From Promethearchaeota archaeon (GTDB lineage: Archaea > Asgardarchaeota > Hermodarchaeia > Hermodarchaeales > Hermodarchaeaceae), in contig JBHLPH010000001.1 of assembly GCA_048939625.1 (NCBI GenBank), positions 149,649 to 213,648 on the forward strand: a stretch of 64,000 nt of DNA, in the 5' to 3' direction. The notes under the pieces are model-generated. The model had not been told where the DNA came from and made no database searches. It saw only the letters and a list, made by a program, of their open reading frames with translations. Position 1 is the stretch's first letter. Each line of letters begins with the position of its first letter. Below are positions 893-19,764 of the stretch, piece by piece. Position numbers and translations under genes: made by a program.

Positions 893-3754
893 TTAACTGT
901 TTCCCTTCCTTTGAGGTTCGTCTGTCTTCGATTCGAAGGTGGGTTCCCTTTGATGTCGTTCACGATAGCGTAGAATGAACTTGAAGACTTCCACAACTAC
1001 AAATATTGAGAAGGTGAGAAGAATGATGATGAGCCAATCTTGAAGAAGAAGAGGTTGTGTACGAAAAACAATTTGGAGTGGTGGAAAATAGATAATGAAT
1101 AATTGGAGTATAATAGAAACAGCGATTGCAAGGATCAGATACCGATTTTTGAAAAAGCCCACTTGAAAGAGAGAGAGATGCCCTGACCGAGAATTCAGAG
1201 CATGCACCATCTGAGTCATCACCAGAACCGTTAAAGCTAGTGTACCCGCTCGAAGAACAGCTTGATCAGGTGATAAGTTGAATGGTGGATTTGTAAGGCT
1301 AAACATTGTAACATAATATATCCATAAAGTGGCAAGGGCAATGGCTACACCCACCACCCATATTAGGACCCAGACCTGTCTTGTAATGATGCCTTCTTGG
1401 GGATCCCGGGGCCCCCGTTTCATCACATCAGGTTCCATGGGATCCATTCCCAATGCGAGGGCAGGTAGTCCATCAGTAACCAGGTTAATGAATAGAATCT
1501 GAATAGCTAGCAGGGGTAGTGGCCAGCGGAAGATAATCGAGAGTGTGATGCTGGCTAGAAAGATGACTAGGATTTCTCCTGCATTACAAGATAAGAGATA
1601 TGAAATAAATTTCCGGGTATTGTCTCCGATACCTCGACCTTCCTCAATGGCATTCACTATCGAGGAGTAGTTATCATCTGTTAGGATCATATCAGAGGCT
1701 TCTTTAGCTACATCCGTTCCTGTGACACCCATAGCAATTCCGATGTCAGCGTATTTGAGGGCAGGCGCATCGTTGACTCCATCACCTGTCATCGCTGTGA
1801 TGTGCCCACGGGTTTTCAAAGCTTGAACAATCCGAAGCTTATGTTCAGGTGAGACACGAGCATAGACACGAACTTGGGGAGCAGCATCCGTGAGGTCAGC
1901 ATCTGAAAGGGCATCGAGAGCACTACCAGTTAGGACTGCATCATCCTCTTCGAACATTCCGAGTTCGTTTGCAATGGCAAGCGCTGTATACTGGTTGTCG
2001 CCAGTAATCATGATAGATTTGATTCCCGCAGTCCGTGCTGTTTTAATAGCATCGTATACTTCAGGACGAGGCGGATCCATCATCCCGACAAGTCCCACGA
2101 ATACGAGATCAAATTCGATGCCTTCTGGTGAGATGTCGCAGAGATCTTCGGGACAAATCCGGTACGCCATTCCCAGAACACGGAGGGCTTTGTTAGCCAT
2201 TTTATCATTGTTGCTTAAGATTTCAGCGCGTTGTTCTTTGGTTAGGGCTTGAATTCCGTTAGCTGTAAATATGTAGGAACTTTGCTCCAGAACAACTTCA
2301 GGAGCACCCTTGATGTAAGCAGTTGTCTCCTGTTCGGGCGTATCATGGAGCGTGGACATACGTTTTCTATCAGGATCAAAGGGCAATTCGGCAATCCTAG
2401 GATATTCATTTAGTTGCGTGTCAGTGAATCCTGCTTTCTGAGCTGCAACCACCAAAGCTCCCTCAGTAGGATCACCTATTACATGCCATTTACCCTCTTC
2501 TTCCCGAATTATAGCATTACTACAAAGAACACCTATACGTAGAAGCAAGGCTAGTTGACCATTTTGTAAAGGATCAATTGGTTGACCGTCGGCTGAAAAG
2601 GAGCCCTCTGGAGAATATCCAGCGCCTGTGACATGCACAGAGTATCCGGGAACATAGAGCTCACGGACTGTCATTTCATCTTTGGTTAGAGTACCGGTTT
2701 TATCAGAGCAAATAATATCAGCAGAGCCTAGGGTTTCAACGGCGGGAAGTCGTCGGATGATGGCATTTCGTTTCACCATCCGTTGGACGCCTAAAGCCAA
2801 AGTTATTGTTACCACTGCAGGTAGACCTTCTGGTATTGCGGCAACAGCGAGTGCTACAGCAATTACGAATAAGTCGAGGAAGGTCGAAAAAGTAAGCATG
2901 GCCATAATCCAAGCAACAACTACCTGAATGGTCAGCACAATCATACAGATAATCAGAATCGCAATACCAAGTTGTCGCCCAAGTTGTCGCATGCGTTTCT
3001 GTTGAGGAGTTTCTTTTTCTCCCGCTTCTGAAATGAACCCTGCAATCCGTCCTATTTCAGTGTTCATCCCCGTTTCGGTCACAACTGCAAGACCTCGCCC
3101 AGAAGTGATTGCGGTACCTGCGTGGACCATATTGGATTGATCAGCTAGTGGGATGTTACGATCAAGAATTCTGTCTGCTTCCTTTTTAACTGGCATCGAT
3201 TCCCCTGTGAGCGATGCCTCGTCTGTATAGATATTATTGGACTCAATTAGCCTTGCATCTGCTGGGAGACGGTCACCCATTTCCAATCGTAGAATTTCAC
3301 CTGGTACTACTTCCGTTGCTGGAATATCAATCGGTTCGCCATTTCGGAGCACATGCGCTTGAGGTGCTGCCATTTTTTGGAGAGCTTCAATAGATTTCTC
3401 AGCTCGATATTCCTGAGTGAAGCCAAGAATAGCATTGAGAATTACAATTATCATGATAACAATGGCGTCAATAGGTGGTTCGGGATGCTCCGTTATGATT
3501 CCTGAGTAGACATTCACGACCAAGGAAATAATGGCTGCAAAAATCAGTATGATGACTAACGCTTCTTTGAATTGTGAAAGAAACATGGAAAGGGGACCAG
3601 GGCCCTTGGCTTCTTCAAGAGCGTTTGGACCGTATTCAGCTAATCTGCGTTGTGCCTCTTCCAGACTGAGTCCATCTTCTGTGACTTGCAGCTGTTCCAT
3701 GACTTGGGATGCATTCTGAGTATGAGGAGGAGGAATATCAGTCGTCAAGGACAC
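893..3754 (-). CDS. P-type cation-transporting ATPase, type IIA (Ca2+/SERCA-like)
   Basis: TGES, VAAIPEGL, DKTGTLT phosphorylation site, KGAPE, MITGD, GDGVNDAPALK, NLVTDGLPA motifs; ~10 TM. Confidence 0.95.
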   Translation of the reverse strand: MSLTTDIPPPHTQNASQVMEQLQVTEDGLSLEEAQRRLAEYGPNALEEAKGPGPLSMFLSQFKEALVIILIFAAIISLVVNVYSGIITEHPEPPIDAIVIMIIVILNAILGFTQEYRAEKSIEALQKMAAPQAHVLRNGEPIDIPATEVVPGEILRLEMGDRLPADARLIESNNIYTDEASLTGESMPVKKEADRILDRNIPLADQSNMVHAGTAITSGRGLAVVTETGMNTEIGRIAGFISEAGEKETPQQKRMRQLGRQLGIAILIICMIVLTIQVVVAWIMAMLTFSTFLDLFVIAVALAVAAIPEGLPAVVTITLALGVQRMVKRNAIIRRLPAVETLGSADIICSDKTGTLTKDEMTVRELYVPGYSVHVTGAGYSPEGSFSADGQPIDPLQNGQLALLLRIGVLCSNAIIREEEGKWHVIGDPTEGALVVAAQKAGFTDTQLNEYPRIAELPFDPDRKRMSTLHDTPEQETTAYIKGAPEVVLEQSSYIFTANGIQALTKEQRAEILSNNDKMANKALRVLGMAYRICPEDLCDISPEGIEFDLVFVGLVGMMDPPRPEVYDAIKTARTAGIKSIMITGDNQYTALAIANELGMFEEDDAVLTGSALDALSDADLTDAAPQVRVYARVSPEHKLRIVQALKTRGHITAMTGDGVNDAPALKYADIGIAMGVTGTDVAKEASDMILTDDNYSSIVNAIEEGRGIGDNTRKFISYLLSCNAGEILVIFLASITLSIIFRWPLPLLAIQILFINLVTDGLPALALGMDPMEPDVMKRGPRDPQEGIITRQVWVLIWVVGVAIALATLWIYYVTMFSLTNPPFNLSPDQAVLRAGTLALTVLVMTQMVHALNSRSGHLSLFQVGFFKNRYLILAIAVSIILQLFIIYFPPLQIVFRTQPLLLQDWLIIILLTFSIFVVVEVFKFILRYRERHQREPTFESKTDEPQRKGNS

Positions 3755-3861: not shown

Positions 3862-4515
3862 TTATGCACTAGGCTTTTCAACTGTCGTTTCCTTTGGAAA
3901 AAGTGTCTTGGCGATTTCGTGTCGATATTTCACTTCGACTTGTGAGAGTAAGGTCTCTATCCGATAATCCACGGTGATATTGCCTTCTTTGTTTTGAACC
4001 ATAACGCCACCAATTATGCCAAGTGCTTGTTTTCCAACGGTGACTTTGGTACTCTGATTAGTTGTTTTTGAAATTGCCGTTCCAAGACCTGTAATCTTTG
4101 AGATGACAGCGTGGTCTTCCTTTCGGGCAAGAACAATAAGATCCCCACCACCAACCTGAATTCCAGCATTGATGATGAGATTTTTCAGAAATGCCTTATA
4201 TCGCGCAGTTCCTCGTTCCTTTTCAAATTGCGTCTGAGCTTCTTGGAACGCTGTATCGATCATCTTAGCTTTGGCACTCATTATCCGCATATGCGCATCA
4301 TTTCGAGCTTTTCCTATAATTCGGTCACCTGATCGCTCAGCCATTTGCTTCCGACGGTCAGCCCAACCAGAGAGAGTGGATTGTGCGTTTTCTTGAGCAA
4401 CCTCGATTAGTTCTCGTGCTGAGACTTCAGCTTTTTGGATAATCTGTTTAGCGTCAGCTTTTGCCTCACTAATAATCATTTGTTCGATTTGATCTGAAGA
4501 CGAGATATTGCTCAT
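3862..4515 (-). CDS. atpE: A/V-type ATP synthase subunit E (peripheral stalk)
   Basis: N-terminal Ala/Glu/Lys coiled coil; C-terminal IIGGVMV...ITVDYRIETLL signature. Confidence 0.85.
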   Translation of the reverse strand: MSNISSSDQIEQMIISEAKADAKQIIQKAEVSARELIEVAQENAQSTLSGWADRRKQMAERSGDRIIGKARNDAHMRIMSAKAKMIDTAFQEAQTQFEKERGTARYKAFLKNLIINAGIQVGGGDLIVLARKEDHAVISKITGLGTAISKTTNQSTKVTVGKQALGIIGGVMVQNKEGNITVDYRIETLLSQVEVKYRHEIAKTLFPKETTVEKPSA

Positions 4516-4838
4516 TTGTTTGCACCTCCATATGAATAAACAGAAGAAACTATGAGATCAACGGTTTTCTTCAAATGCTTCTTCCCTTGTTCCTCAATAG
4601 CGGCGGCTTCTTGCTCAGCTTTGGAAAGAATAGTTTTGGATTGCGTTTGAGCCTTTTTCTCTACACCCTTTTGCTGGGTAGCAATTTGCGCCGCCAGTTC
4701 ATCCCGAACTTTCTGTTCAGTTTCGCGTGCCTGGCGTTCAGCCTCACGCTTAATTTGCTCAGCTTTTGCTTGGGCTTCTTCAATAATCTTTGCAGCCTTA
4801 GCTTCGGCACTTTGGATACCAGATAAAACCTCGCTCAT
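4512..4838 (-). CDS. atpH: A/V-type ATP synthase subunit H/G (peripheral stalk)
   Basis: 108-aa coiled coil IQSAEAKAAKIIEEA...VDLIV; overlaps the subunit E start. Confidence 0.8.
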   Translation of the reverse strand: MSEVLSGIQSAEAKAAKIIEEAQAKAEQIKREAERQARETEQKVRDELAAQIATQQKGVEKKAQTQSKTILSKAEQEAAAIEEQGKKHLKKTVDLIVSSVYSYGGANK

Positions 4839-5006
4839 CGTTTACACCGAAAGAACCTGACAATACCTTAGTCGGTAATCGCCTTTCAACAAAGACCTAT
4901 CCTAATAAGCATTATTATCCGTTAAATTTCTGAAATTGGATAATCTTCCGAAACCTTAAGAATGGGATTCCCTTTACTATCGACCCCCAAATGAGAATTT
5001 ATCTCA

Positions 5007-5255
5007 ATGGGAGCTTCGGTGACAGAGTTGAGTGATGAACCTCCAATGTCAGGTGGAAGGGTATTCCGTTATACCACGATCGCCTGCGAGATTCTCGTTT
5101 TTGCCTTTGTTGGATGGATTATTGGACCATATATCTGGGGACCAAACGGACAATATCTTGGAGCCCTTATCGGAGCATTACTCGGTACTCTTATGATGTT
5201 TTGCACGCTGTTCTACCTAGCAGGACTCTTTGGAAGAAAGGAGAAACAAGCGTAA
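5007..5255 (+). CDS. Small two-TM protein, AtpZ/AtpI-like accessory candidate
   Basis: Gly-rich two-helix pattern (VGWIIG...GALIGALLG); directly upstream of subunit C. Confidence 0.5.
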   Translation: MGASVTELSDEPPMSGGRVFRYTTIACEILVFAFVGWIIGPYIWGPNGQYLGALIGALLGTLMMFCTLFYLAGLFGRKEKQA

Positions 5256-5295
5256 GAAGAAGGCTTATCAAAAGTGAGTGAGAAGGTAGCACACA

Positions 5296-6345
5296 ATGTC
5301 CGTCGCACGATACAGTTTCATCAACGCTAAAATTAGAGGATATAAAGCCGATATGCTTACTTCTGAGCATTGGGATGCTCTTCTTGGTGCGCGAGACATG
5401 TATGCGGCCCTCCGTGTGCTCGATACAACCAGTTATGCCGATATCGTGAAGGACTTTGATGAAACTGCGACGCCACAAGAGGTTGAACAAGCTCTGCAGC
5501 TAGACTTCAACCGTGTTCTTTCAGAAATCCGGACCGATGTCCCTAAAAGCGCCCAAACACTCATGAACTGGATTACACGAAAATTCCAACGAGAAGTTGT
5601 TAAACCCATCCTCCGACTTTTCGTTACTGAGAAAGATGCGAGTTTGGCAGAACGTCTACTTGTGCCTGTGGATCCTTTCACAACAACCGTTCTGCTAGAT
5701 CTGCTTTCAGCCAAAGACCTAAATGAATTTATAGACAAAATCCCCGATCGATATTTCAGAAATATAATCAGGGATAATCTGCCGAAATACGAGGAAACTA
5801 GCAGATTGGTAATTATCGAACAAGCCATTGACGCAGATATTTTGAATAACTTATACTTGGAAGCCCAGAAACTCAAAGGTCTTGATAAAGACGTTACCTC
5901 AAAGCTTGCTGGTGTAGAAATTGATCTTGTGAACCTAATGATAACTCTTCGAACTCACTTTCTCGGAATCGAGCAAGCAGACGCTGAAGCCCTTCTTCTC
6001 GATGCGGAATATCGCCTATCTCGTAATTTATGTAAAGAGGCATTAGCTGCAAGAAGCTTTGAGGAACGCGTACGAAAACTCCAAGAAAGTGTATATGGAT
6101 CGATGATTGCCAAAAGCTGGGAAGCTTATGAATTACACCAAACGCTCTACACTTTTGAGCACACATTTCATGAACAAATCCGACGAGATAGCACCGATGC
6201 ACTCCTCGGGTATCCATTCCATCTGGGAATTGTCCTTGGCTACCTTAATCTGAAATGGTACGAAATCGTCAATTTGAAAGCCGTGATGAATGGAAAAGCT
6301 GATCAAATTGATCCAAATATAATCCGTCGCGTCCTTATCCTATAA
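5296..6345 (+). CDS. atpC: A/V-type ATP synthase subunit C (d/AC39 family)
   Basis: YSFINAKIRG N-terminus, EIDLVNL, YLNLKWYEIVNLKAV...IRRVLI C-terminus; 349 aa. Confidence 0.9.
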   Translation: MSVARYSFINAKIRGYKADMLTSEHWDALLGARDMYAALRVLDTTSYADIVKDFDETATPQEVEQALQLDFNRVLSEIRTDVPKSAQTLMNWITRKFQREVVKPILRLFVTEKDASLAERLLVPVDPFTTTVLLDLLSAKDLNEFIDKIPDRYFRNIIRDNLPKYEETSRLVIIEQAIDADILNNLYLEAQKLKGLDKDVTSKLAGVEIDLVNLMITLRTHFLGIEQADAEALLLDAEYRLSRNLCKEALAARSFEERVRKLQESVYGSMIAKSWEAYELHQTLYTFEHTFHEQIRRDSTDALLGYPFHLGIVLGYLNLKWYEIVNLKAVMNGKADQIDPNIIRRVLIL

Positions 6346-6386
6346 TCGCTCCTTAATGTGTGACTGAGTAAAAATCTGGAGGTACG

Positions 6387-6767
6387 ATGAATATGGGTTC
6401 CCATCACATTCTTTTTGATGAAAATTTGAGCACCTCCCGAAAAACGCTAGCGGGTCAACTCTATCAAATACTCCTATCGAATAACTGGGTATGCCATTCT
6501 GTTCATGATTTCCCGGATTTAATTGGTCACCCTGACGAAGAAATCATCGCATATGCAAAGAAGCAGAAGTGGTCCTTACTAACCCTTGATAAACGAATGG
6601 CCTATTTATCCGTCAAAGAAGGAGTTCAAACCTACCTGATTCTTCACGAGAAACGAAGTGATGAAGACGAAGAAATCGAAGAATATACGGTCGTTCATCT
6701 CGAACCCTTCGCTACTATCGAAGCCAGGAAAAGCTACGATGCCCGACTCACAGGACCCAGCAAATGA
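6387..6767 (+). CDS. PIN-like (DUF5615/Mut7-C type) protein
   Basis: LFDENL, DEEIIAYA, LLTLDK motifs. Confidence 0.65.
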   Translation: MNMGSHHILFDENLSTSRKTLAGQLYQILLSNNWVCHSVHDFPDLIGHPDEEIIAYAKKQKWSLLTLDKRMAYLSVKEGVQTYLILHEKRSDEDEEIEEYTVVHLEPFATIEARKSYDARLTGPSK

Positions 6768-6779
6768 GAAAAGTGCAAA

Positions 6780-7157
6780 TTAGATTAGTCGCAATTCATG
6801 GACTTTTCCAATGAACTTATCGTAATCGCCTTTACTCACCGAATAGATGTGATACTTTGAATTCCCAGAATCATCATCGTAGGTCAAATACATTAACGTG
6901 GGTCCACCAGTCCAACGTTCATAACTTTGACCAACAAGTCGATCAGAGGGAAAGGCATGTAGTCGTTTCTTTTCTTTCTTGAACGTACCCTTAACTTTAA
7001 GAAAGACGAATTCTTTTTCTGTGAGAACCAATTCGCCTTTCGTTTTCTCTAGCGTGTTAAATCCGGTTTCATCACGAATTTCATGCGTTGCTTTGATAGA
7101 AATGATTACTTTTGCACCACCGAAAGGATCAGCCTCAGTCAATACAGCCCACCTCAA
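6780..7157 (-). CDS. Hypothetical protein, PH-like fold candidate
   Basis: GELVLTEKEFVF strand motif with a C-terminal helix. Confidence 0.45.
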   Translation of the reverse strand: MRWAVLTEADPFGGAKVIISIKATHEIRDETGFNTLEKTKGELVLTEKEFVFLKVKGTFKKEKKRLHAFPSDRLVGQSYERWTGGPTLMYLTYDDDSGNSKYHIYSVSKGDYDKFIGKVHELRLI

Positions 7158-7261
7158 TACAAACGTGACTAAGAAAGATAAAAGCGTTGGGAAGACTTCA
7201 AGCGTACCTTCCCAACTAGCTTCTTCTAAGTATCAAGTCGAGAAAAGGAAAATTCATTCAA

Positions 7262-8296
7262 TTAGATTAGCGCATCGCTAACTTCACTAATGATCTGATG
7301 ATAGATTGACTCTGCTTTCTGTTGGGATTTAATTCCTCGAATTAAGATATTGCCTTCCCCAACAATACTGACTTCAATTCCTTTCGCAAACTGTATTTGC
7401 ACACCCATCGATGTTTGAGCTATAATAGGATACTTTTGTCGAAGAATAGCGGTTGCCTGTTTGATATCAATCGGAATGGCATCATATGCGTGTACCAAGA
7501 AGGTCTCCTCTGTACATAATTCTGTTATTTCAAGTCCAGCTTGAATCTTAGGTTCGGCTAGTTTAACCGCAGGTCCGCAGACTGGACAGTTCTCATGGGA
7601 TTGCAGAGGAATCTGGTCAAGTCGAAAGCGTGTGATATCAAACATGAGAAGTTCGTTCGCTAGTAACGGTGGTTTATCGAGAATTAGATGCAACACCTCT
7701 TGTACCTGCAGATTAGCAATTACTCCCAACACCGTCGGATAGATCCCGACTGTCGCACAAGTCGGTTGATCCTCCTCCAAGCCACCAAATACACATTCGA
7801 GGCAGGCAGTTTTCCCAGGAATTATAGTTGTTAAATTGCCTACCCCAGCCAATGCCCCAGCAAACACGTAAGGAATTCCCTGACGCACGCAAGCACGATT
7901 CAGGGCATATCGTGGCTTAAAACTATCTAAACCATCCACCACTACATCCATCCCTTTCACCACACGATCCGCCGTAGTTTCCGTCACCGAAAGCGCCCAT
8001 GGTTCAACCGAAACCTCCGCATTAAGTTGCTTCAATCGATTCATTGCCACCTCCACCTTCGGCTTCCCCACATCCTCAGCCGTATACAGTAACTGACGCT
8101 GCAGATTCGAAAGTTCAATAATGTCACGGTCCACAATTCGAAGCGTGCCAATCCCCAGTGAAGCCAATTGCCGAGCCGACACACTCCCTAATCCACCAAT
8201 CCCAACAACCACAACTTTCGCCTCACGGATTCGCTCTAAACCCACTTTTCCAATTCCATCAAGCACGCGGAATCGGCTATACCGATCTTCCGTCAT
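7262..8296 (-). CDS. HesA/MoeB/ThiF (E1-like) adenylyltransferase
   Basis: GIGGLG, DRDIIELSNLQRQ, CLEC and CPVC zinc motifs, PTC catalytic Cys. Confidence 0.9.
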   Translation of the reverse strand: MTEDRYSRFRVLDGIGKVGLERIREAKVVVVGIGGLGSVSARQLASLGIGTLRIVDRDIIELSNLQRQLLYTAEDVGKPKVEVAMNRLKQLNAEVSVEPWALSVTETTADRVVKGMDVVVDGLDSFKPRYALNRACVRQGIPYVFAGALAGVGNLTTIIPGKTACLECVFGGLEEDQPTCATVGIYPTVLGVIANLQVQEVLHLILDKPPLLANELLMFDITRFRLDQIPLQSHENCPVCGPAVKLAEPKIQAGLEITELCTEETFLVHAYDAIPIDIKQATAILRQKYPIIAQTSMGVQIQFAKGIEVSIVGEGNILIRGIKSQQKAESIYHQIISEVSDALI

Positions 8297-8374
8297 TTAT
8301 GGCACCACCATTTCACCGAGTACTAACTGGTACTGACAATTCTTGACCTTTTCTAAACTTCTATAGAAAGTGCC

Positions 8375-10267
8375 TTAAATCTGCATGATGAGCATGAACG
8401 CCACAAGCAGCGTATAAATAGCAAGGGCTTCCGCTAACACCACTGGCACCATGGACTTACTGAATACTTCTGGTTTATTCACCAAGGCACCTACCATGGA
8501 GGCACCAGCCCACCCAATCGCGACACCTGCGACGAGACCACCAAGGCCAACCGTCAAAGCAGCAGACAATCCCGTAAATGCTGTCGACATTGTTACTGTA
8601 TCCATCCGCATGACTAACATAAAGGCAGCTAACAAACCGTAAATGCCGAGAGCCTCTGCCAGCACAACACTGACCAGCCCTTTACTGAAGGTTTCAGGAG
8701 CAAACCGCAGACTAGCACATAACGCAGCACCACCAAGCCCAATACCAATCCCTCCACCCAAAGCGGCAAGGGAAATTGAAGATCCCGCAGATATTGCCAT
8801 AATTCCTTGCGCCATCGCTTGTGCGACATCAGGAGCAGCCGCTACCGTATCGATACGCATCACAACCATAAAGCCAATTAACAAACCGTAAATGCCGAGA
8901 GCCTCTGCCAGCACAACACTGACCAGCCCTTTACTGAAAGCTTCAGGTCGCTCAGCTATCGTTTGACTGAGTGACTCGCCAGCATAAGCAATACCAAAGC
9001 CAGCACCGATACAGGATACACCAATTGCAATACCTGCACCTATACCCATAAGTCCTTGTGCGACAGCGAAGCCGGGATCTGTGCTGAGTCCGTCGATTCG
9101 CATGATTAACATGAAACTTAATAGTAGCCCATAAATGCCGAGGGCCTCTGCTAGCACAACGCTAACAAGACTCTTTGAGAATGCATCTGGGGCCCGGACT
9201 AGACTTCGACTCAACGCACCACCAGCTTTGGAAATACCATACCCAGCCCCAATCGCGGCGAGTCCTATAGCCATGCCTGCAGCGAGACCTACTAATCCCT
9301 CCCCAAACAAAGCGACCTGCTCTATTCGCATTAGCAACATGAAACTTGCTAATAAGCCGTAAATTCCCAAGGCCTCTGCCAGCACCACGGCGACTAAGCC
9401 CTTGCTAAATATCTCCGGCTTCTCGACAAGACTATCGGAGAGGGCTTCACCTGCTGAAGCGATACCAATTCCTGCACCAAGTGCTGCTAGCCCTATAGCG
9501 AGCCCAGCAGCCAGTGCAATTGTTCCAGCAGCAAGTTGTTGTTCGAGGGCTCCAGTGATTTGTTCGATTCGCATTAGGAGCATGAAACTTGCTAATAAGC
9601 CGTAAATTCCCAAAGCCTCTGCAAGCACAACACTGACCAGCCCTTTACTGAAGGTTTCAGGAGCACGAACCAAACTCTTGCACAGAGATGAGCCAGATTT
9701 AGCAATTCCAATGCCTGCACCAACCGCAGCGATACCGATTGCAAGTCCTGCGGCAATAGCAATGAGCCCCGCTCCAGGATTCGTAGCCACAGCACCTTCA
9801 ATACGCATGAGAAGCATGAAGCTTGCTAGCAACCCGTAAATGCCAAGGGCCTCAGCTAACACAACTGAAACGAGGGCTTTACTGAAGGTTTCAGGGGCCT
9901 CCGCTAGACTGGTGCACATGCTACTCCCAGCATAGGCAATGCCAATCCCTGCCCCGATGGCTGCAATACCAATCGAGAGTCCGGCTCCGAGGGCAATCAT
10001 GCCTTGGACCATATTGGTGATTGATGGTAGACGCATGAGTATCATGAATGAAGCGAGTAAGCCGTAAATTCCCAAGGCCTCTGCGAGGACAACAGCAATC
10101 ATGCTTTTGCTGAAGGTTTCAGGTTTTTCGGCGATGGTGCCGATCATGGCGCTACCGCTGAAGCCGATGCCGATGGCGGCGCCTGCGGCGCCGAGTCCGG
10201 CAGCCAGGAGCGCGCCGAATGTGGCAAGAACCTGTCCCATGGCTTCTGGGGGTATCAGCTGCAGCAT
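8375..10267 (-). CDS. atpK: A/V-type ATP synthase rotor subunit K/c with eight fused hairpins (~630 aa)
   Basis: Eight copies of a Gly-rich helix + (K/A/R)P(E/D) loop + VVLAEALxIYxLL; likely start MLQLIPP at 10267, 5 nt after the subunit I stop. Confidence 0.93.
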   Translation of the reverse strand: MLQLIPPEAMGQVLATFGALLAAGLGAAGAAIGIGFSGSAMIGTIAEKPETFSKSMIAVVLAEALGIYGLLASFMILMRLPSITNMVQGMIALGAGLSIGIAAIGAGIGIAYAGSSMCTSLAEAPETFSKALVSVVLAEALGIYGLLASFMLLMRIEGAVATNPGAGLIAIAAGLAIGIAAVGAGIGIAKSGSSLCKSLVRAPETFSKGLVSVVLAEALGIYGLLASFMLLMRIEQITGALEQQLAAGTIALAAGLAIGLAALGAGIGIASAGEALSDSLVEKPEIFSKGLVAVVLAEALGIYGLLASFMLLMRIEQVALFGEGLVGLAAGMAIGLAAIGAGYGISKAGGALSRSLVRAPDAFSKSLVSVVLAEALGIYGLLLSFMLIMRIDGLSTDPGFAVAQGLMGIGAGIAIGVSCIGAGFGIAYAGESLSQTIAERPEAFSKGLVSVVLAEALGIYGLLIGFMVVMRIDTVAAAPDVAQAMAQGIMAISAGSSISLAALGGGIGIGLGGAALCASLRFAPETFSKGLVSVVLAEALGIYGLLAAFMLVMRMDTVTMSTAFTGLSAALTVGLGGLVAGVAIGWAGASMVGALVNKPEVFSKSMVPVVLAEALAIYTLLVAFMLIMQI

Positions 10268-10272
10268 TGCTA

Positions 10273-12219
10273 TCACTTCTTGGTGGTTGGTTCGGTGGTG
10301 GTCCATTTATCAGGGAGTTCGAGAGGCGTATACTCATACCCCGTGCCAGCATAGAATTTTAGAAATGCCTCCACCCAAAGTAAACGTAAGCTGTGTATGA
10401 AGGAAAGGAGACCTTCCATGAGGAGGACGAAGACGGAAGCGAGGACGAGCATACCGATAAGCATTACTATAAACATGGTGCCTTCTGTAGCGATTTGGGA
10501 GAGGATAGAATTGATTTCAGCTGCATTGACGCCACCGATAAAGAGGAAGGTTTTGGCGAATCCAGCGTGGGCCATGTTGAGGGCGAGGATTCGAGAGTAG
10601 CTGATAGTGTTGCTGATGCTCTCGATGAGTTTTTCGATACCTTCCATGAATCCTTCCATGAAGCCGAAAACAACGATGCCTCCGATAAACATGATGACGG
10701 CTGGTAATATGAGGAAGAGGACCATGTCGATGATGGGCCAATTCATGAAGTTGATGCCATAGTTAAAGATCATATAGGCGAGACCCCAGAGGAAAGCAAG
10801 CCAGATGATTGGACCAAAGATAGCGTGGCGATAGTCACGGTGGCGGAGTTTGTTAATGGCGCTAAAGCCTATTGCGATACTAAGGTGGATAAAGCCAATC
10901 ATGATACTGAGGACGAAAAGAATCCATGTCGGACTGGCGATATAAGTGGGAAGATGTTCAGGCATTTCGAATGCACTGAACCAGATTTGAGTTGGATGTC
11001 CAAGGGCGCCGCCAGTGACGAGCCATTCGTTATAAGGACTTTCCGCAAGGACGAACCAATTGATGCCACCTTCAAAGTCGAAAAAGCGGAACAAATTGAG
11101 CAGGACATCTCGCATTCCTGTTCCAAAGGGTGATATTTTGAGCTGCTGATACACATACACGCCACCTACTTGGAGACCCGCAATATCGATGCCAAGAAAC
11201 TCAGCGTACAAGAAACCAAAAAAGATAGACGAAATACCCAACATCATTAGGAGCCCTGAGCCCTGTATGAAATAGTTAACCATCTCGCCTGCATCGATGT
11301 TCCGGCGTTTGGCGATGAACCCTAGAGAAGAAAAAAATACAAGCAAGAGTCCATGTCCGATGTCGCCGAACATGAGGCCAAAAAACAGTGGTAGGCTGAG
11401 GAGGAGGAACCAGGTTGGGTCGATTTCGGTGTGGTGTGGGAGACCAAAGGCGTTGGTGAGAATTTGGGCGCTTCGAGCCCATCGAGAGTTTTCCTGTTTG
11501 GTTGGTGGTGCCACGGGTTCTTCGGGAGTAACTGCGCCTTCGAGGGGTCCTGTGTCCCCTGCATAATGTTCTTGTTCGGGTTTGTCAGTATGCTTTTCAA
11601 TTGTGAGGGAGACAGTGGTGTTTCCGTGTTTTTCCAGAATTTTTGTGAATTCTTTCTCTTTTTTTGCAGGAATCCAGCCATACATGACATAAGTGCGATG
11701 GGTTTTTCCGAAGAGGGTTTTAGTTTCTTCGATTTGGTGTTCCCGTTTGACGAGTTCTTCCCATCCAAGTAATTCATATCGGTGTTCTTCGGCGTAGCCT
11801 TCGATTTCTTTTTTTGTGGCCTTTTTGACTTTCTTGTTCCCAGCGGCTTCAGCAGCTTCGAATTGTTTGGTGAGGTCTGTGAAACCGTCTTCAATGGCTT
11901 TGAGTTTTTTTTCCATGGTTTCGAAGTAGGCTTGATCAGGGATGTCTGGAACTTCTAGGCGGTGTTTGGCTGATCCGCCTCGATAAACCTGCATATCAGT
12001 CATGAGAGAGGTGAGGCGAGTTAGTAGATTGGATAGGTAATAGAAACGTTCAGAAGCTTCAACTGGAGCGAGAGCTTTAAGGTGTTTTTTCTGACTTTCT
12101 TTCACGTCGGAAAAGTGGACGAGTTCGGTGCTTGCCAGGAGGCGCAATGTTGCATCCATATCAGTGTCTAGTACCACGGCTGTGAGGTTACTCATTTTCG
12201 CTGGGAGCATCGGAGCCAA
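10273..12219 (-). CDS. atpI: A/V-type ATP synthase subunit I/a
   Basis: GWIP, PPT, EIDP, FFGLMFGDIGHG, NTISYSRILAL (essential Arg), IHSLRL-WVEAFLKFY motifs. Confidence 0.95.
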   Translation of the reverse strand: MAPMLPAKMSNLTAVVLDTDMDATLRLLASTELVHFSDVKESQKKHLKALAPVEASERFYYLSNLLTRLTSLMTDMQVYRGGSAKHRLEVPDIPDQAYFETMEKKLKAIEDGFTDLTKQFEAAEAAGNKKVKKATKKEIEGYAEEHRYELLGWEELVKREHQIEETKTLFGKTHRTYVMYGWIPAKKEKEFTKILEKHGNTTVSLTIEKHTDKPEQEHYAGDTGPLEGAVTPEEPVAPPTKQENSRWARSAQILTNAFGLPHHTEIDPTWFLLLSLPLFFGLMFGDIGHGLLLVFFSSLGFIAKRRNIDAGEMVNYFIQGSGLLMMLGISSIFFGFLYAEFLGIDIAGLQVGGVYVYQQLKISPFGTGMRDVLLNLFRFFDFEGGINWFVLAESPYNEWLVTGGALGHPTQIWFSAFEMPEHLPTYIASPTWILFVLSIMIGFIHLSIAIGFSAINKLRHRDYRHAIFGPIIWLAFLWGLAYMIFNYGINFMNWPIIDMVLFLILPAVIMFIGGIVVFGFMEGFMEGIEKLIESISNTISYSRILALNMAHAGFAKTFLFIGGVNAAEINSILSQIATEGTMFIVMLIGMLVLASVFVLLMEGLLSFIHSLRLLWVEAFLKFYAGTGYEYTPLELPDKWTTTEPTTKK

Positions 12220-14024: not shown

Positions 14025-15644
14025 TTAGGCTGTTGGAATGGGTGGTAGCGGAAGAGCTCCAGCGGCTTGTAATGCAAAGTCGACAAAGACACCGGGGAAG
14101 AGGCCAAAGAGGATGATGAAAATCATTAGCACTCCTATGACGAAGAGAAAGAGCCAGTGAGGGCGTTTCGCTGTAGCGGCTTCGGGGCTAGGTTCTGAGA
14201 AGACAAGGAATTGAATCATTCGCAAGTAATAGACGACACTGAAGGCACTCATCAGAACCATGATGATGGTGGCAAGGTAAGCGCTTGCGACGATTGAGCC
14301 CCAGATGATGTAGAATTTACTATAGAAGCCAACTAGTGGTGGGACACCCGCAAGGGAAAGAGCAGCAATGGTGAAGCAGAACATCACGAATGGCATGCGG
14401 CGACCGACACCTTGCAGTTTATCCAAATCGCGAGTCCCTATTTGGTGCAAGAAAATTCCGGCAATTAAAAAGAGCATACCCTTGGCGAGCATGTGGCTGA
14501 AGATATGGAGTAGGCTTCCGGTCACCGAGTATGTGAGAGCTTCTTGGGGAACCCATGGGGCATGGGGCATCATGGCGACGCTGAAACCAAAGATGATGAA
14601 GCCAACGTTTACTATTGTCGAGTAGGCGAGAAGACGTTTCAGATCCTTTTGGGTTAGCGCCATGAGGTTACCATAAATCATCGTGAAGAGGGCAAACCAG
14701 CTGATGACAGCACCGTAGTAGACGAACAGATATGGGTCGAAGAAGAGGACCAAGAGCCGAATAATCGCATAAGCACCGGTCATGATGACGACCCCACTAA
14801 GCATGGCGCTGATGCCACTGGGAGCAGCTGGATGGGCATCAGGTAACCAAGTAGAGAGTGGGGCGATGGCAGCTTTGACACCGAAACCAATTATCAGACC
14901 AACAATAGCGAAGATAAGAACACCATAAATCGCGGAGGTGGCTGCTGGTGGTCCAACGAGGAGGGCAGCGAGCGCGGGACCAATTTGATAGAGGTTGAGT
15001 GTGCCTGTCAGTCCATAAAGAATGGACATTGTGAATAGGATTAAGGTTGAACCAACAGCACTGAGAAGCAAATATTTGATACCAGCTTCGAGAGGTTCCG
15101 CTTCCTCTCGGCGGAAGGCAACCAGGACATAGCTGCTGATGGACATAGTTTCCCAGAGAATGAAAAGGGTGAAGAAATCACCTGCGAAAACCACTCCAAT
15201 CATGCCACCGACTAGTGTGAGAAGGAGGGCATAATAGAGTGGGAGGCGTGTGTCGTGCTCCATGTATTTAATTGAGTAGAGGGAGACGAGGATTGCAAGG
15301 GTTAGGAAGATAACGGACATATACACGGTTAGCATGTCAATGCGGAAGAAGGTGGCACCGGTTGAGGCATCAAAGGCACCCAAGGGCCAATACCAGATTT
15401 CGATCGGTCCGCTAGTGAGTACCTGCCAGTAAAGCCCTAAAGTTGACCCTCCCCAGAGAGTGGTAATTGAAAGAGGCCAAAATATGATTAGTAGACCTAA
15501 TATGAAGAACAGGGCAGCAAGTACGCCTAAACTTGTCTTGCGTCGGTCCTGCCAGAATTTACCTAGTAACCCAAGGATGAGGGCACCGACGAAAGGTAAC
15601 CAGAGGGGTATGAGTTGAATCCATTCTGTGGGTCCAATTGCCAT
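14025..15644 (-). CDS. Antiporter-like membrane subunit, NuoN/MbhH/MrpD family
   Basis: WETMSISSY, EAGIKY, WLPDAHPAAP, KRLLAYST, GVPPLVGFYSK. Confidence 0.88.
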   Translation of the reverse strand: MAIGPTEWIQLIPLWLPFVGALILGLLGKFWQDRRKTSLGVLAALFFILGLLIIFWPLSITTLWGGSTLGLYWQVLTSGPIEIWYWPLGAFDASTGATFFRIDMLTVYMSVIFLTLAILVSLYSIKYMEHDTRLPLYYALLLTLVGGMIGVVFAGDFFTLFILWETMSISSYVLVAFRREEAEPLEAGIKYLLLSAVGSTLILFTMSILYGLTGTLNLYQIGPALAALLVGPPAATSAIYGVLIFAIVGLIIGFGVKAAIAPLSTWLPDAHPAAPSGISAMLSGVVIMTGAYAIIRLLVLFFDPYLFVYYGAVISWFALFTMIYGNLMALTQKDLKRLLAYSTIVNVGFIIFGFSVAMMPHAPWVPQEALTYSVTGSLLHIFSHMLAKGMLFLIAGIFLHQIGTRDLDKLQGVGRRMPFVMFCFTIAALSLAGVPPLVGFYSKFYIIWGSIVASAYLATIIMVLMSAFSVVYYLRMIQFLVFSEPSPEAATAKRPHWLFLFVIGVLMIFIILFGLFPGVFVDFALQAAGALPLPPIPTA

Positions 15645-15660
15645 CTTTTTTCAGCCTCCA

Positions 15661-17232
15661 TTATGGGGGAACTAAGGGGAACCCTGGTGGGAACCAGGGG
15701 AGTTGTTGTGTGAATGCTGTGAAAAGCGGGTTCACCACGATCATTGGCCAAATTCCAATGATAATGATAAGCGCCGCTAGTAGGAGCATGGAAAGTCGCA
15801 TGATCCATGGACTCTCAGTGATATTTTCCAAGTCCGCAGGTGTCTCGCCGAAGAAGACGCGTTTCACAAACCAGAGGACATAGGCAGCGGTTAGGGCTGA
15901 TCCGGCAACCGCGAAGATGAGGAGCCAGATTGTGTACGCAAAAGCAGCTCCGCCGAAGATAAAGAATTCGGAGAAGAATCCTGCTAAGGGAGGAGTGCCA
16001 GCAAGACTCAAGCCTGCAATCAGTGCAATGGTGGCAGTCCAAGGCATTTTCCTCCCCAAACCACCCAATGCGTCGATGTCTCGACCTCGTTGATGACCCA
16101 CCTGAACGATGAGGACACCTGCAACCATAAACAAGAGCCCTTTGCCAAGGGCGTGGGTGAAGATGTGGAAGGCAGCCCCTGTCACGCCAAGAAGGACAGC
16201 GGTTCCGAGTCCGAAGAAGATGTAACCCATCTGAGATATAGATGAGTATGCAAAGAGCCGTTTCGTGTCCTTTTGAGCCAGCGCCATTGCTCCACCGTAG
16301 AACATGGTAACGATGCCAAAGATCATAATTACCATCACGAAGGCGCCAAAGGCAGGAAGCATATAGCCCATTAAAATCCTGATAATCGCATACGCTGCGG
16401 TGGCAATCATTACACCAGACAAGATTGCACTAATTGGAGTGGGAGCTTCAGCGTGAGCATCGGGTAACCACGAGTGAATCGGGAAGACCGCCATCTTGAC
16501 CGCAAATCCAATGGTAAAGAGGACCACCAATATCTTAGCAAGTTCGAAGAACCCTGCATAGATTGTTGGGACAGGAACCCCAGCAGCCCATATCCAGCTT
16601 AGGTCAATCACTTGGCTGGGTCCACCTACACTTGAGAAGTCAACTAAGCTGAGGGTGGCAACACCATTGATAGCAGATAACGTATACATACCCGCAATGC
16701 CCACGATGATAAGTACTGCACCAACGTGTGTGTAGATGAAGTATTTCAGGGCGATTTTGGTGGATTGAGGTTTGGTGCCCCATTCAGCGATGAGGAAGTA
16801 GCTGGGGATCAGCATCAGTTCCCAGAGGACGTAAAATTGGAAGAGGTTGGTAGCAATCACTACTCCAAAAATGCCCGCATTGTAGAGTAGAAGCAGGGCA
16901 TAGTATTTGCCGTGTCCATGTTCCTTCTGCATGTACACTAATGAATAGATAGTTGCGGCCATGGTGAGTATAATGATGATTCCAGCTACTGTGATACTGA
17001 GTCCATCAAGGAGCCAACCAAAGACGAAGGGTCCCCAAACGAACCATTCGAGGTAGACGCCTGTAAGCGTTGCTTCCCACCATGCGAGGGCATAGGTAAC
17101 AAGACTAACGAGCATAATCACAACTGCAAAGATTCCGGAATAGCGTCCATTACGCCGTCCAATGATGTAAGCAATCAGCGATCCGAATATCATGAGTAAC
17201 ATGGTAATTGAGAGCCAGGGTACGAGCGCCAT
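15661..17232 (-). CDS. nuoM: Antiporter-like membrane subunit, NuoM family
   Basis: WELMLIPSY, KMAVFPIHSWLPDAHAEAP, GTPPLAGFFSEF. Confidence 0.88.
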   Translation of the reverse strand: MALVPWLSITMLLMIFGSLIAYIIGRRNGRYSGIFAVVIMLVSLVTYALAWWEATLTGVYLEWFVWGPFVFGWLLDGLSITVAGIIIILTMAATIYSLVYMQKEHGHGKYYALLLLYNAGIFGVVIATNLFQFYVLWELMLIPSYFLIAEWGTKPQSTKIALKYFIYTHVGAVLIIVGIAGMYTLSAINGVATLSLVDFSSVGGPSQVIDLSWIWAAGVPVPTIYAGFFELAKILVVLFTIGFAVKMAVFPIHSWLPDAHAEAPTPISAILSGVMIATAAYAIIRILMGYMLPAFGAFVMVIMIFGIVTMFYGGAMALAQKDTKRLFAYSSISQMGYIFFGLGTAVLLGVTGAAFHIFTHALGKGLLFMVAGVLIVQVGHQRGRDIDALGGLGRKMPWTATIALIAGLSLAGTPPLAGFFSEFFIFGGAAFAYTIWLLIFAVAGSALTAAYVLWFVKRVFFGETPADLENITESPWIMRLSMLLLAALIIIIGIWPMIVVNPLFTAFTQQLPWFPPGFPLVPP

Positions 17233-17243
17233 CTTGTATCACC

Positions 17244-19409: not shown

Positions 19410-19428
19410 TTTTCTTTTTCACCTCAGG

Positions 19429-19764
19429 TTAATGACGCAGTTTGTTGAGTTTTCGGATATCAAGGGTTCCGAATTTATTGTAAGCGCGAATGAAGAACGA
19501 CAAAGCAATTGCAATGACTCCACCGCCGATACAGATGCTGACAATGACAATCGCCTGAGCCATTAAGTCAATGTAAAAGCCTGACCACGCCGTAGCAAAT
19601 ACGATGAAGTTCAAGTGGGCGCCATCAAGTAGTAATTCCAAGGCAATAAGGAATTTAATCATATTCCGTTTAGTCGCCATGCCATAGATACCAACCGCAT
19701 ATAGGAAAACCGCTAAGATGAGAAACGCCACAATGGGGACGCCTAAAATTTCAAGATACGACAT
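19429..19764 (-). CDS. nuoK: NuoK/MnhC-like three-TM subunit
   Basis: GIYGM-KRNMIKFLIALELLL, GTLDI C-terminus. Confidence 0.85.
   Translation of the reverse strand: MSYLEILGVPIVAFLILAVFLYAVGIYGMATKRNMIKFLIALELLLDGAHLNFIVFATAWSGFYIDLMAQAIVIVSICIGGGVIAIALSFFIRAYNKFGTLDIRKLNKLRH

What the first reader, a model, noticed from the sequence alone, without database searches (positions are those of the whole stretch)
8375..10267. Single-chain eight-hairpin ATP synthase rotor: a possible one-gene c8 ring
Seen: one ORF with eight c-subunit hairpins. Glu codons lie at ~10080, 9852, 9618, 9375, 9147, 8904, 8655 and 8430 (spacing 225-249 nt, all in frame), and every copy keeps the ion-binding Glu (LAEAL). 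Known: c/K genes usually encode 1-3 hairpins, fused ones often lose a carboxylate, and Methanopyrus kandleri has a 13-hairpin gene. Eight is the smallest known ring size (mammalian mitochondrial c8). Inference: one polypeptide could close into a full ring with a genetically fixed 8 ions per 3 ATP (~2.7), or two copies could form a 16-hairpin ring. The motif is E-A with no upstream Gln, unlike the Q..E(S/T) Na+ signature, suggesting H+ coupling.
Basis: partly seen in the sequence, partly recalled or inferred. Interest (0 to 1): 0.92.

Follow-up and report, generated by a model that had tools for sequence, protein, structure and literature searches.

The report
Eight-hairpin ATP synthase rotor gene
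An Asgard archaeon (Hermodarchaeota) encodes the proton-carrying rotor subunit of its only rotary ATP synthase as one protein of eight fused, all-active hairpins; sister species carry a 15-hairpin version at the same locus, so two copies most likely build a 16-site ring, not the eight-site ring first proposed.

Summary
Window 8375-10267/10306 (-) is one ORF of 630/643 aa with eight PF00137 hairpins. The repeats are old (52-71% DNA identity). At least 12 independent assemblies show the same eight-unit gene, and it is the only c/K gene found in this 88%-complete MAG. It follows subunit I by 5 nt; C and E lie nearby, and A, B, D and F are on other contigs.

The new context is in the relatives. 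In the same genus the same locus (CysRS | I | K | ThiF) holds either this 8-hairpin gene or a 15-hairpin gene. The two share an almost identical hairpin consensus, including every Gly/Ala packing position. The socket subunit C aligns without a gap across both types. One 15-hairpin species has 98.9% identical RpoB.

Solved V/A-type rings found here have 12-20 hairpins. Other archaea have 6-hairpin genes and a 12-hairpin gene patterned as 6+6.

I therefore favour two copies forming a 16-site ring, about 5.3 H+/ATP (~0.55). A one-chain c8 ring is ~0.18. H+ coupling is supported: the site reads E-A-L, not E-T-Q. Ring size is inferred, not shown.

This scan had already followed up the 15-hairpin form in other genomes. 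The 8-hairpin form had been noted but not followed up.

The parts
8375..10267 (-). Proteolipid (subunit K/c) gene of an A/V-type ATP synthase: eight fused hairpins, 630 aa from ATG 10267. An upstream in-frame ATG at 10306 would give 643 aa and overlap subunit I.
   Evidence: orthologues of 630-631 aa start at the equivalent of 10267
10031..10255 (-). Hairpin 1 (aa 18-92 of the 643-aa frame), Glu codon 10079-10081. It is the distinct 'first' hairpin, orthologous to hairpin 1 of the 15-hairpin and 7-hairpin genes.
9803..10027 (-). Hairpin 2, Glu codon 9851-9853
9569..9793 (-). Hairpin 3, Glu codon 9617-9619
9326..9550 (-). Hairpin 4, Glu codon 9374-9376
9098..9322 (-). Hairpin 5, Glu codon 9146-9148
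8855..9079 (-). Hairpin 6, Glu codon 8903-8905
8606..8830 (-). Hairpin 7, Glu codon 8654-8656. A 105-nt stretch (8594-8698) is 90% identical to 8843-8947 in hairpin 6.
8381..8605 (-). Hairpin 8, Glu codon 8429-8431 (GAA). It is the most divergent 'last' hairpin, orthologous to hairpin 15 of the 15-hairpin gene.
10273..12219 (-). Subunit I (a), the stator and ion channel partner of the ring, immediately upstream. It is the only copy found in the genome.
   Evidence: PF01496, E 3.9e-50; single copy
5296..6345 (+). Subunit C (d/AC39), the socket that couples the central shaft to the ring
   Evidence: PF01992, E 1.1e-53; 349 aa, gapless alignment with ten relatives
3862..4515 (-). Subunit E (peripheral stalk)
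   Evidence: PF01991, E 7e-27
4512..4838 (-). Small ORF directly upstream of E, possibly subunit H. This is inferred from position only.
   Evidence: no Pfam family above cut-off

Best explanation
This is the sole proteolipid (K/c) gene of the single A/V-type rotary ATP synthase of a Hermodarchaeota (Asgard) archaeon. It is translated as one ~62-kDa membrane protein of 16 helices, that is eight covalently linked hairpins. Each hairpin carries a protonatable Glu in a V-ATPase-like, H+-type site (VVLAEALGIYG). Shown: the gene, its eight intact sites, its place next to subunit I, the rest of the enzyme in the genome, and the absence of any other c gene in what is assembled. Inferred: two copies pack head to tail (hairpin 8 of one against hairpin 1 of the other) into a 16-hairpin, 16-site ring that turns against subunit I. 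That gives about 16 H+ per 3 ATP (5.3). It would be functionally equivalent to the 15-hairpin single-chain ring (5.0) encoded at the same locus in sister species. A high ratio of this kind lets ATP be made at a low proton-motive force: about 100 mV at 50 kJ/mol, against about 195 mV for an 8-site ring (my arithmetic). That suits an anaerobic sediment organism.
For: Gene and sites. Sole c gene in G000, G010 and G012. Enzyme parts: I; C and E; F, A and B; D. Same locus, 8 or 15 hairpins: the order CysRS | I | K | ThiF is kept in both types, with 15-hairpin ORFs of 1148-1149 aa in six full genomes of the genus and a seventh cut by a contig end. Same building block: the consensus hairpins of the 8- and 15-hairpin genes agree at 70 of 72 positions, including G20, G25, A26, G27, G29, G34 and the whole outer helix. 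The packing angle, and so the natural ring size, should therefore be alike. Same socket: 11 C subunits from both types align over 349 aa with no gap column, and an 8-type (G010) and a 15-type (G011) C are sisters. Shaft subunit D is 87-97% identical across both types. G000 (8) and G003 (15) have 98.9% identical RpoB, so a two-fold change of gearing between them is unlikely. Solved V/A rings found by sequence have 12 hairpins (Thermus K, 12 chains per entry) or 20 (E. hirae K10; eukaryotic c-rings of 10 double-hairpin subunits), and none has fewer. Precedent for part-ring genes: 6-hairpin K genes in cultured Methanomicrobiales, and a 12-hairpin protein whose site pattern is an exact 6+6 repeat. 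AlphaFold2 with 14 sequences gives pLDDT 93 and pTM 0.91. Hairpins 1-2 of that model fit eukaryotic V-ATPase c subunits (20-hairpin rings) at 1.5-2.0 A over 149-153 residues (Z 20-22). They fit the two-hairpin c1 of the smaller A. woodii F-type ring less well, at 3.2 A (Z 14.7). H+ type: E-A-L in all eight, against E-T-Q in Na+-type multi-hairpin proteins (PMC2359735). The best PDB sequence matches are H+-pumping eukaryotic c'' and c.
Against: No tool here returned model coordinates, so neither ring closure nor the angle per hairpin was measured, and the stoichiometry is inferred only. Between G000 and its nearest relative G003, subunits C (60%) and I (75%) have changed together with K, while the genes lying between them are 88-93% identical. 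That could mean the 8-type ring needs its own socket and stator, which a real change of diameter would explain better than 16 against 15. Every 8-hairpin genome seen has a clade-A subunit C. A sister genus has a 7-hairpin gene plus a 3-hairpin gene, so ring sizes in the family may truly vary. F-type a-subunits are known to serve rings of 8 to 17 (my knowledge), so a conserved stator says little about ring size. The fit to V-type c subunits covers only two hairpins and is also affected by sequence distance.
Confidence: 0.55

Rival explanations
1. One chain closes on itself into an eight-hairpin, eight-site ring (about 2.7 H+/ATP). This would be the smallest A/V-type rotor, with size fixed by the gene. 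The 8- and 15-hairpin cassettes would then be alternative 'gears' exchanged among species.
For: Eight-membered c-rings exist in F-type enzymes (bovine entries hold 8 chains each). All eight sites are intact and the first and last hairpins are specialised. C and I co-vary with K between the near-identical species G000 and G003, and 8-hairpin genes occur only with clade-A C. The AlphaFold model is very confident as a single chain (pTM 0.91).
Against: The hairpin consensus, including the inner-helix Gly/Ala positions, is the same as in the 15-hairpin protein. Subunit C has no indel, and clade-A C also serves a 15-hairpin gene. No solved V/A ring found here has fewer than 12 hairpins. Hairpins 1-2 of the model fit 20-hairpin-ring geometry at 1.5 A. 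An 8-site ring needs roughly 195 mV to make ATP at 50 kJ/mol (my arithmetic).
Confidence: 0.18
2. The polypeptide is not the working unit. It is either cut at the short linkers or translated from internal starts into smaller pieces, and the ring size is then set by hairpin packing alone.
For: Every hairpin is a complete PF00137 unit. Each ends in a conserved M-R-I-(E/D)-like boundary. A gene caller did pick an internal start in a 15-hairpin orthologue.
Against: Exactly 8 collinear units are kept across two genera, at 73-81% identity per hairpin. The first and last hairpins are specialised, which is what selection on the whole chain would produce. Linkers are only 0-8 residues long. An engineered single-chain c10 ring works uncleaved (PMC8809890).
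Confidence: 0.07
3. Another stoichiometry applies: three copies (24 hairpins) or a variable number of chains per ring.
For: V-type rings of 20 hairpins exist, and nothing measured here fixes the copy number.
Against: The 15-hairpin orthologue sets the expected size near 15-16.
Confidence: 0.08
4. Assembly artefact: a 15-hairpin gene collapsed to 8 units.
For: Repeats do break assemblies in this clade. The gene is split or truncated at contig ends in G005, G007 and G008, and Logan contigs break at each conserved segment.
Against: The units share only 52-71% DNA identity. The same 8-unit gene appears in at least 12 independent protein clusters and is collinear 1:1 with an 8-hairpin gene in another genus. 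Depth over the unique parts is flat and no skipping joints were seen. The contig is over 200 kb.
Confidence: 0.02

Closest known systems
Methanopyrus kandleri A-ATP synthase subunit K (1021 aa, 13 hairpins, deduced monomeric rotor; cited in PMC2359735 and in preprint 10.64898/2026.10.01.756066)
   Same: Many proteolipid hairpins are fused in one gene and every hairpin keeps its carboxylate. A Methanopyrus protein of 1021 aa with 13 hairpins was recovered here.
   Different: Only 31% identical. It has 13 hairpins against 8. Its sites are E-T-Q (full Na+ ligand set), while these are E-A-L. Thirteen lies within the range of known ring sizes and eight does not, so the 'one chain = one ring' deduction does not carry over.
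15-hairpin K gene of sister Hermodarchaeota species
   Same: Same locus and neighbours and a nearly identical consensus hairpin. Hairpins 1-3 and the last hairpin are orthologous. All sites are E-A-L.
   Different: It has seven more internal hairpins and a very regular 76-aa period, and presumably forms a full ring as one chain. The 8-hairpin form has linkers of uneven length.
Six-hairpin K subunits of Methanomicrobiales and Thermoplasmata, and 12-hairpin proteins patterned as 6+6
   Same: They are multi-hairpin genes too short to be a whole ring, so several copies must assemble. One 12-hairpin protein repeats the 6-unit site pattern exactly.
   Different: They have Na+-type E-T-Q sites. The first hairpin has Gln in place of Glu and the last lacks the Gln ligand, so one site is missing per chain. 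Here all eight sites are intact.
Engineered single-chain c10 ring of Bacillus PS3 F-ATP synthase (Mitome et al. 2004, as described in PMC8809890)
   Same: Covalently fused hairpins work as a rotor in ATP synthesis and proton pumping.
   Different: It is artificial, F-type, and has added Gly-Ser-Ala-Gly linkers. From memory, only fusions that divide the natural ring size (2, 5, 10) were active; the original paper could not be opened here.
Eukaryotic V-ATPase proteolipids c and c''
   Same: They are the best sequence matches in the PDB (E about 4e-14) and the best structural matches (Z 20-22, 1.5-2.0 A). They share the E-A/V..IYG proton site.
   Different: They have two hairpins with one carboxylate per subunit, and ten subunits per ring.
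Bovine mitochondrial c8 ring
   Same: The number eight.
   Different: It is F-type, built of eight separate single-hairpin subunits, with a different central stalk. Nothing here shows an eight-membered ring.

Membership tests
A/V-type ATP synthase proteolipid (subunit K/c, PF00137) | Two-helix hairpin matching PF00137 above the gathering score | tested here: met
   8 stretches, whole-protein E 6.1e-128 and 417.6 bits against a cut-off of 24; each unit scores 48-68 bits
A/V-type ATP synthase proteolipid (subunit K/c, PF00137) | Ion-binding carboxylate in the middle of the second helix | tested here: met
   Glu in LAEAL in all 8 hairpins, and 100% conserved in 32 hairpins of 8-type and 90 hairpins of 15-type genes
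A/V-type ATP synthase proteolipid (subunit K/c, PF00137) | Encoded with subunit I/a, with the other A1AO subunits present in the genome | tested here: met
   I ends 5 nt upstream; C and E are in the window; F, A and B on contig C36; D on C63
A/V-type ATP synthase proteolipid (subunit K/c, PF00137) | Assembles into a ring that rotates against subunit I | not testable with these tools
   Needs the purified enzyme or models with coordinates
Monomeric (one-chain) rotor of the M. kandleri kind | The single chain holds as many hairpins as a whole V/A-type ring | tested here: not met
   8 hairpins here; solved V/A rings found have 12 or 20, and presumed one-chain rotors have 12-15
Monomeric (one-chain) rotor of the M. 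kandleri kind | The last hairpin packs against the first hairpin of the same chain (ring closure) | tested here: inconclusive
   The AlphaFold2 model is confident (pLDDT 93, pTM 0.91) but no coordinates are returned. The local geometry of hairpins 1-2 matches large rings.
Monomeric (one-chain) rotor of the M. kandleri kind | No other proteolipid gene in the genome | tested here: met
   Only these 8 matches in G000 (87.6% complete), and likewise 8 each in G010 and G012
Na+-binding c/K subunit | Gln/Glu in helix 1 plus Ser/Thr next to the carboxylate (E-T-Q in V-type); ligand set from PMC2359735 | tested here: not met
   E+1 is Ala and E+2 is Leu in all 8. The helix-1 position reads F, Y, K, S, K, Y, L, W. 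Methanopyrus-type proteins show T and Q at the same columns.

The most novel reading that the evidence does not exclude
The chain really closes into an eight-site ring. It would be the first A/V-type rotor smaller than 12 hairpins, with 2.7 H+/ATP fixed by the gene. In that case sister Hermodarchaeota species with near-identical housekeeping genes swap 8- and 15-site rotor cassettes, together with matching subunits C and I, as alternative gear ratios for energy-rich and energy-poor conditions.
Probability: 0.17. Interest if true: 0.92.

Novelty: new variant of a known kind. Interest (0 to 1): 0.68.

Why it matters
The number of ion sites in the rotor sets the H+/ATP ratio, a basic parameter of cell energetics. 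It is normally fixed only indirectly, by how separate subunits pack. Here the number is written into a gene, and one genus of Asgard archaea, the closest known relatives of eukaryotes, carries two forms (8 and 15 hairpins) at the same locus. Even species with 98.9% identical RpoB differ in this. That is a natural experiment on how ring size is set and tolerated.

If two chains make a 16-site ring, it would have more sites than the 13 deduced for the M. kandleri rotor, the largest A-type figure in the papers I read, and would fit life at very low driving force. If one chain makes an 8-site ring, it would overturn what is assumed about the geometry of V/A-type rotors.

In both cases each hairpin of the ring is individually addressable by mutation, as in engineered single-chain rings. 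In the papers searched, M. kandleri (13 hairpins) is still cited as the extreme, and none mentions these genes.

Tried and rejected
- **Tandem Repeats Finder** on the gene found only a 12-nt trifle, because the units are too diverged.
- **AlphaFold2 without an alignment** gave a poor model (pLDDT 59). Searching it against the ESM Atlas matched only a two-hairpin V-type proteolipid.
- **Ring closure.** The good model could not be checked for closure, because no coordinates are returned.
- **Complex prediction was not used.** Two copies (1260 residues) exceed its limit, and any cut pair (hairpin 8 with hairpin 1, or K with C) would pass or fail equally under both ring models.
- **An apparent 11-hairpin relative (P0011)** is a mis-called start inside a 15-hairpin gene.
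- **G017 seems to hold both an 8- and a 15-hairpin gene.** The subunit I next to the 15-hairpin gene on its 8.7-kb contig is virtually identical to that of G002, so I treat that contig as probably mis-binned.
- **Direction of change (8 to 15 or 15 to 8) could not be settled.**
  - The subunit I tree nests the 8-type clade among 15-type lineages.
  - Yet the 8-hairpin gene is collinear across two genera.
  - The RpoB, C, I and D trees disagree with one another.
  - The 15-hairpin gene shows no clear 8+8-1 self-similarity.
- **Expression.** No RNA holder was listed among the sequencing runs, so expression was not examined.
- **Read support.** The runs laid are Logan contigs that break at each conserved segment, so no single record spans the gene.
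- **Mitome et al. 2004** could not be opened.
- **Literature.** Searches for Thorarchaeota, Hermodarchaeota or Asgard together with c-ring or proteolipid terms found no paper describing these genes.
Full report
**1. What is there**

The minus strand of window 8375-10306 is one open frame of 643 aa. Pfam finds a single family, PF00137 (ATP synthase subunit c), at E 6.1e-128 in eight stretches. A six-frame scan of the whole genome finds the same eight units, each above the curated cut-off, and nothing else. The motif LAEAL occurs eight times.

The likely start is ATG 10267. It lies 5 nt after the stop of the upstream gene, follows a GAAGTGA stretch, and is where the 630-631-aa orthologues begin.

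**2. Is it real?**

- The eight units share 39-76% protein identity and 52-71% DNA identity. Tandem Repeats Finder does not see them.
- Only one 105-nt stretch is 90% alike between units 6 and 7.
- Orthologues with exactly eight hairpins occur in at least 12 protein clusters from NCBI, JGI, ENA and Logan assemblies, at 62-97% identity.
- Contigs of public runs from three studies tile all unique parts without mismatch, at flat depth and with no skipping joints. They break at the conserved segment of each unit, so none spans the gene.
- An 8-hairpin gene in a sister genus is collinear unit by unit, 73-81% on the diagonal.

A collapsed assembly is therefore very unlikely.

**3. Organism and enzyme**

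Records of close relatives are titled Candidatus Hermodarchaeota; some are labelled Thor-, Odin- or Promethearchaeota. This is an Asgard archaeon. The genome is a MAG of 2.3 Mb in 83 contigs, 87.6% complete.

The upstream gene (10273-12219, -) is subunit I/a, the only copy found. Subunit C (5296-6345, +) and subunit E (3862-4515, -) are in the window. F, A and B lie on contig C36 and D on C63. So this is one A/V-type enzyme with scattered genes, and this ORF is its only proteolipid gene in what is assembled.

**4. Relatives change the picture**

Most genomes from the other families sampled in the phylum have one ordinary c hairpin match; a few have two to seven. In this genus and its sister genus the gene is always multi-hairpin:

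| Form | Genomes |
|---|---|
| 8 hairpins | G000, G010, G012, and G017 in the sister genus |
| 15 hairpins (1148-1149 aa) | G001, G002, G003, G006, G011, G014; G007 is cut at a contig end |
| 7-hairpin gene plus a second gene with a ~320-aa extracellular domain and 3 hairpins | G015, G018 |

The neighbours CysRS | I | K | ThiF are the same around the 8- and 15-hairpin genes. Hairpins 1, 2, 3 and the last hairpin are orthologous between the two forms. The 15-hairpin form has seven more internal units.

An apparent 11-hairpin protein is a mis-called start. The 15-hairpin contig binned with G017 carries a subunit I virtually identical to that of G002, so it is probably mis-binned.

**5. One ring from one chain, or from two?**

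This cannot be measured with the tools at hand, but several lines point the same way.

- (a) **Same building block.** The consensus hairpins of the two forms agree at 70 of 72 positions. This includes every small residue of the inner helix and the entire outer helix. Ring size in c-rings is set by how hairpins pack (established knowledge). The same hairpin should therefore give about the same curvature: 24 degrees per unit in a 15-ring and 22.5 in a 16-ring, not 45.
- (b) **Same socket and shaft.** Subunit C, which plugs the shaft into the ring, aligns over 349 aa without a single gap column in 11 genomes of both types. The C of an 8-type genome (G010) is sister to that of a 15-type genome (G011). 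Shaft subunit D is 87-97% identical throughout.
- (c) **Near-identical species differ.** G000 (8) and G003 (15) have 98.9% identical RpoB. A jump from 5.0 to 2.7 H+/ATP between such close relatives is hard to credit; 5.0 to 5.3 is not.
- (d) **Known V/A rings are larger.** Solved V/A-type rings recovered by sequence have 12 hairpins (Thermus, 12 chains per entry) or 20 (E. hirae K10; eukaryotic rings). Eight occurs only in F-type mitochondrial rings.
- (e) **Part-ring genes exist elsewhere.** Cultured Methanomicrobiales have 6-hairpin K genes. One 12-hairpin protein repeats the 6-unit pattern of sites exactly, which marks it as a fused dimer.
- (f) **Model geometry.** With a 14-sequence alignment AlphaFold2 gives pLDDT 93 and pTM 0.91. 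Hairpins 1-2 of the model superimpose on eukaryotic V-ATPase c subunits (20-hairpin rings) at 1.5-2.0 A over about 150 residues. They superimpose on the two-hairpin c1 of the smaller A. woodii F-type ring at 3.2 A. This is weak, because it covers two hairpins only and sequence distance differs between the targets.
- (g) **Energetics (my arithmetic).** At 50 kJ/mol, an 8-site ring needs about 195 mV and a 16-site ring about 97 mV.

**6. What speaks the other way**

Between G000 and its nearest relative G003, subunits C (60%) and I (75%) have changed along with K. The genes lying between them are 88-93% identical. G000's C and I go instead with the 8-type genome G012, at 85% and 93%. All three 8-type genomes of the genus have clade-A C.

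So ring, socket and stator move as a set, which would be expected if the 8-type ring were physically different. The sister genus's 7+3 arrangement also hints that ring size may vary in this family. I therefore keep a real c8 ring at about 0.18.

**7. Coupling ion**

The Na+ ligand set is Gln/Glu in helix 1, the carboxylate, and Ser/Thr next to it (PMC2359735). At the aligned columns, Methanopyrus-type and other multi-hairpin proteins read E-T-Q. This protein and all its Hermodarchaeota relatives read E-A-L, with a variable helix-1 residue. The nearest solved proteins by sequence are proton-pumping eukaryotic c'' and c. H+ coupling is the reasonable inference, though untested.

**8. Novelty**

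In the papers searched, M. kandleri (13 hairpins) is still cited as the extreme, including in an October 2026 preprint. No paper in the held library links Asgard, Thor- or Hermodarchaeota with multi-hairpin proteolipids.

Earlier agents of this scan had already followed up the 15-hairpin form in other genomes, and first readers had noted the 8-hairpin form elsewhere. I found the 15-hairpin genes independently before reading those notes.

- the 8/15 dimorphism at one locus,
- the shared hairpin consensus,
- the mosaic exchange of C, K and I,
- the resulting case for a (K8)2 ring.

**9. Verdict**

This is a new variant of a known kind, a fused multi-hairpin proteolipid. Its most likely working form is a 16-site proton ring built from two chains (0.55). 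Ring size should be settled by modelling with coordinates or by native mass and cryo-EM.

Noticed in passing
window 3862-12219, compared with G003 (L025, L087) and G012 (L033, L046): Mosaic divergence. Against G003, RpoB is 98.9%, D 97%, and orf125/ThiF/PIN 88-93% identical, but C is 60% and I 75%. Against G012, I is 93% and C 85%. Rotor and stator alleles (C, K, I) seem to be exchanged among species of the genus independently of the genes lying between them.
   Followed up: partly
L034:1523-3166 (-) and L035:1343-2986 (-) (G015, G018, sister genus): A second proteolipid gene sits next to a 7-hairpin gene. It has an N-terminal hydrophobic segment, a ~320-aa domain rich in N-x-S/T sequons (probably extracellular), and then 3 hairpins with intact Glu. 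This would put a large extracellular domain on a rotor subunit.
   Followed up: no
proteins P0071, P0076, P0084, P0065, P0028: In six-hairpin K subunits of Methanomicrobiales and Thermoplasmata (some with PKD domains), the first hairpin has Gln for Glu and the last lacks the Gln ligand, giving 5 sites per 6 hairpins. The 12-hairpin protein P0028 repeats this pattern twice (6+6).
   Followed up: partly
proteins P0052, P0093, P0118: Candidate-phyla-radiation bacteria (Vampirococcus, Gracilibacteria) have c subunits of 10-12 fused hairpins with E-S-A sites.
   Followed up: no
L042:5801-10637 (G000 contig C36): The A1 genes are separated from the membrane genes. A 358-aa ORF with a MazE/AbrB-like domain lies between subunits A and B, and an HTH protein precedes F.
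   Followed up: no
window 8594-8698 and 8843-8947: A 105-nt stretch is 90% identical between hairpins 7 and 6, against 52-71% for the units overall. This may be a gene-conversion patch over the conserved PE(T/A)FSK..VVLAEAL segment.
   Followed up: partly
L030 (G017 contig C282, 8.7 kb): This contig carries a 15-hairpin gene and a subunit I virtually identical to that of G002. The same bin has its own 8-hairpin gene on C318, so C282 is probably a mis-binned contig.
   Followed up: partly
window 893-3754 (-) and 14025-19764 (-): A P-type cation ATPase (953 aa) and three Mrp/Nuo antiporter-like subunits plus a NuoK-like gene flank the ATP synthase genes. These are the likely generators or users of the ion gradient.
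   Followed up: no
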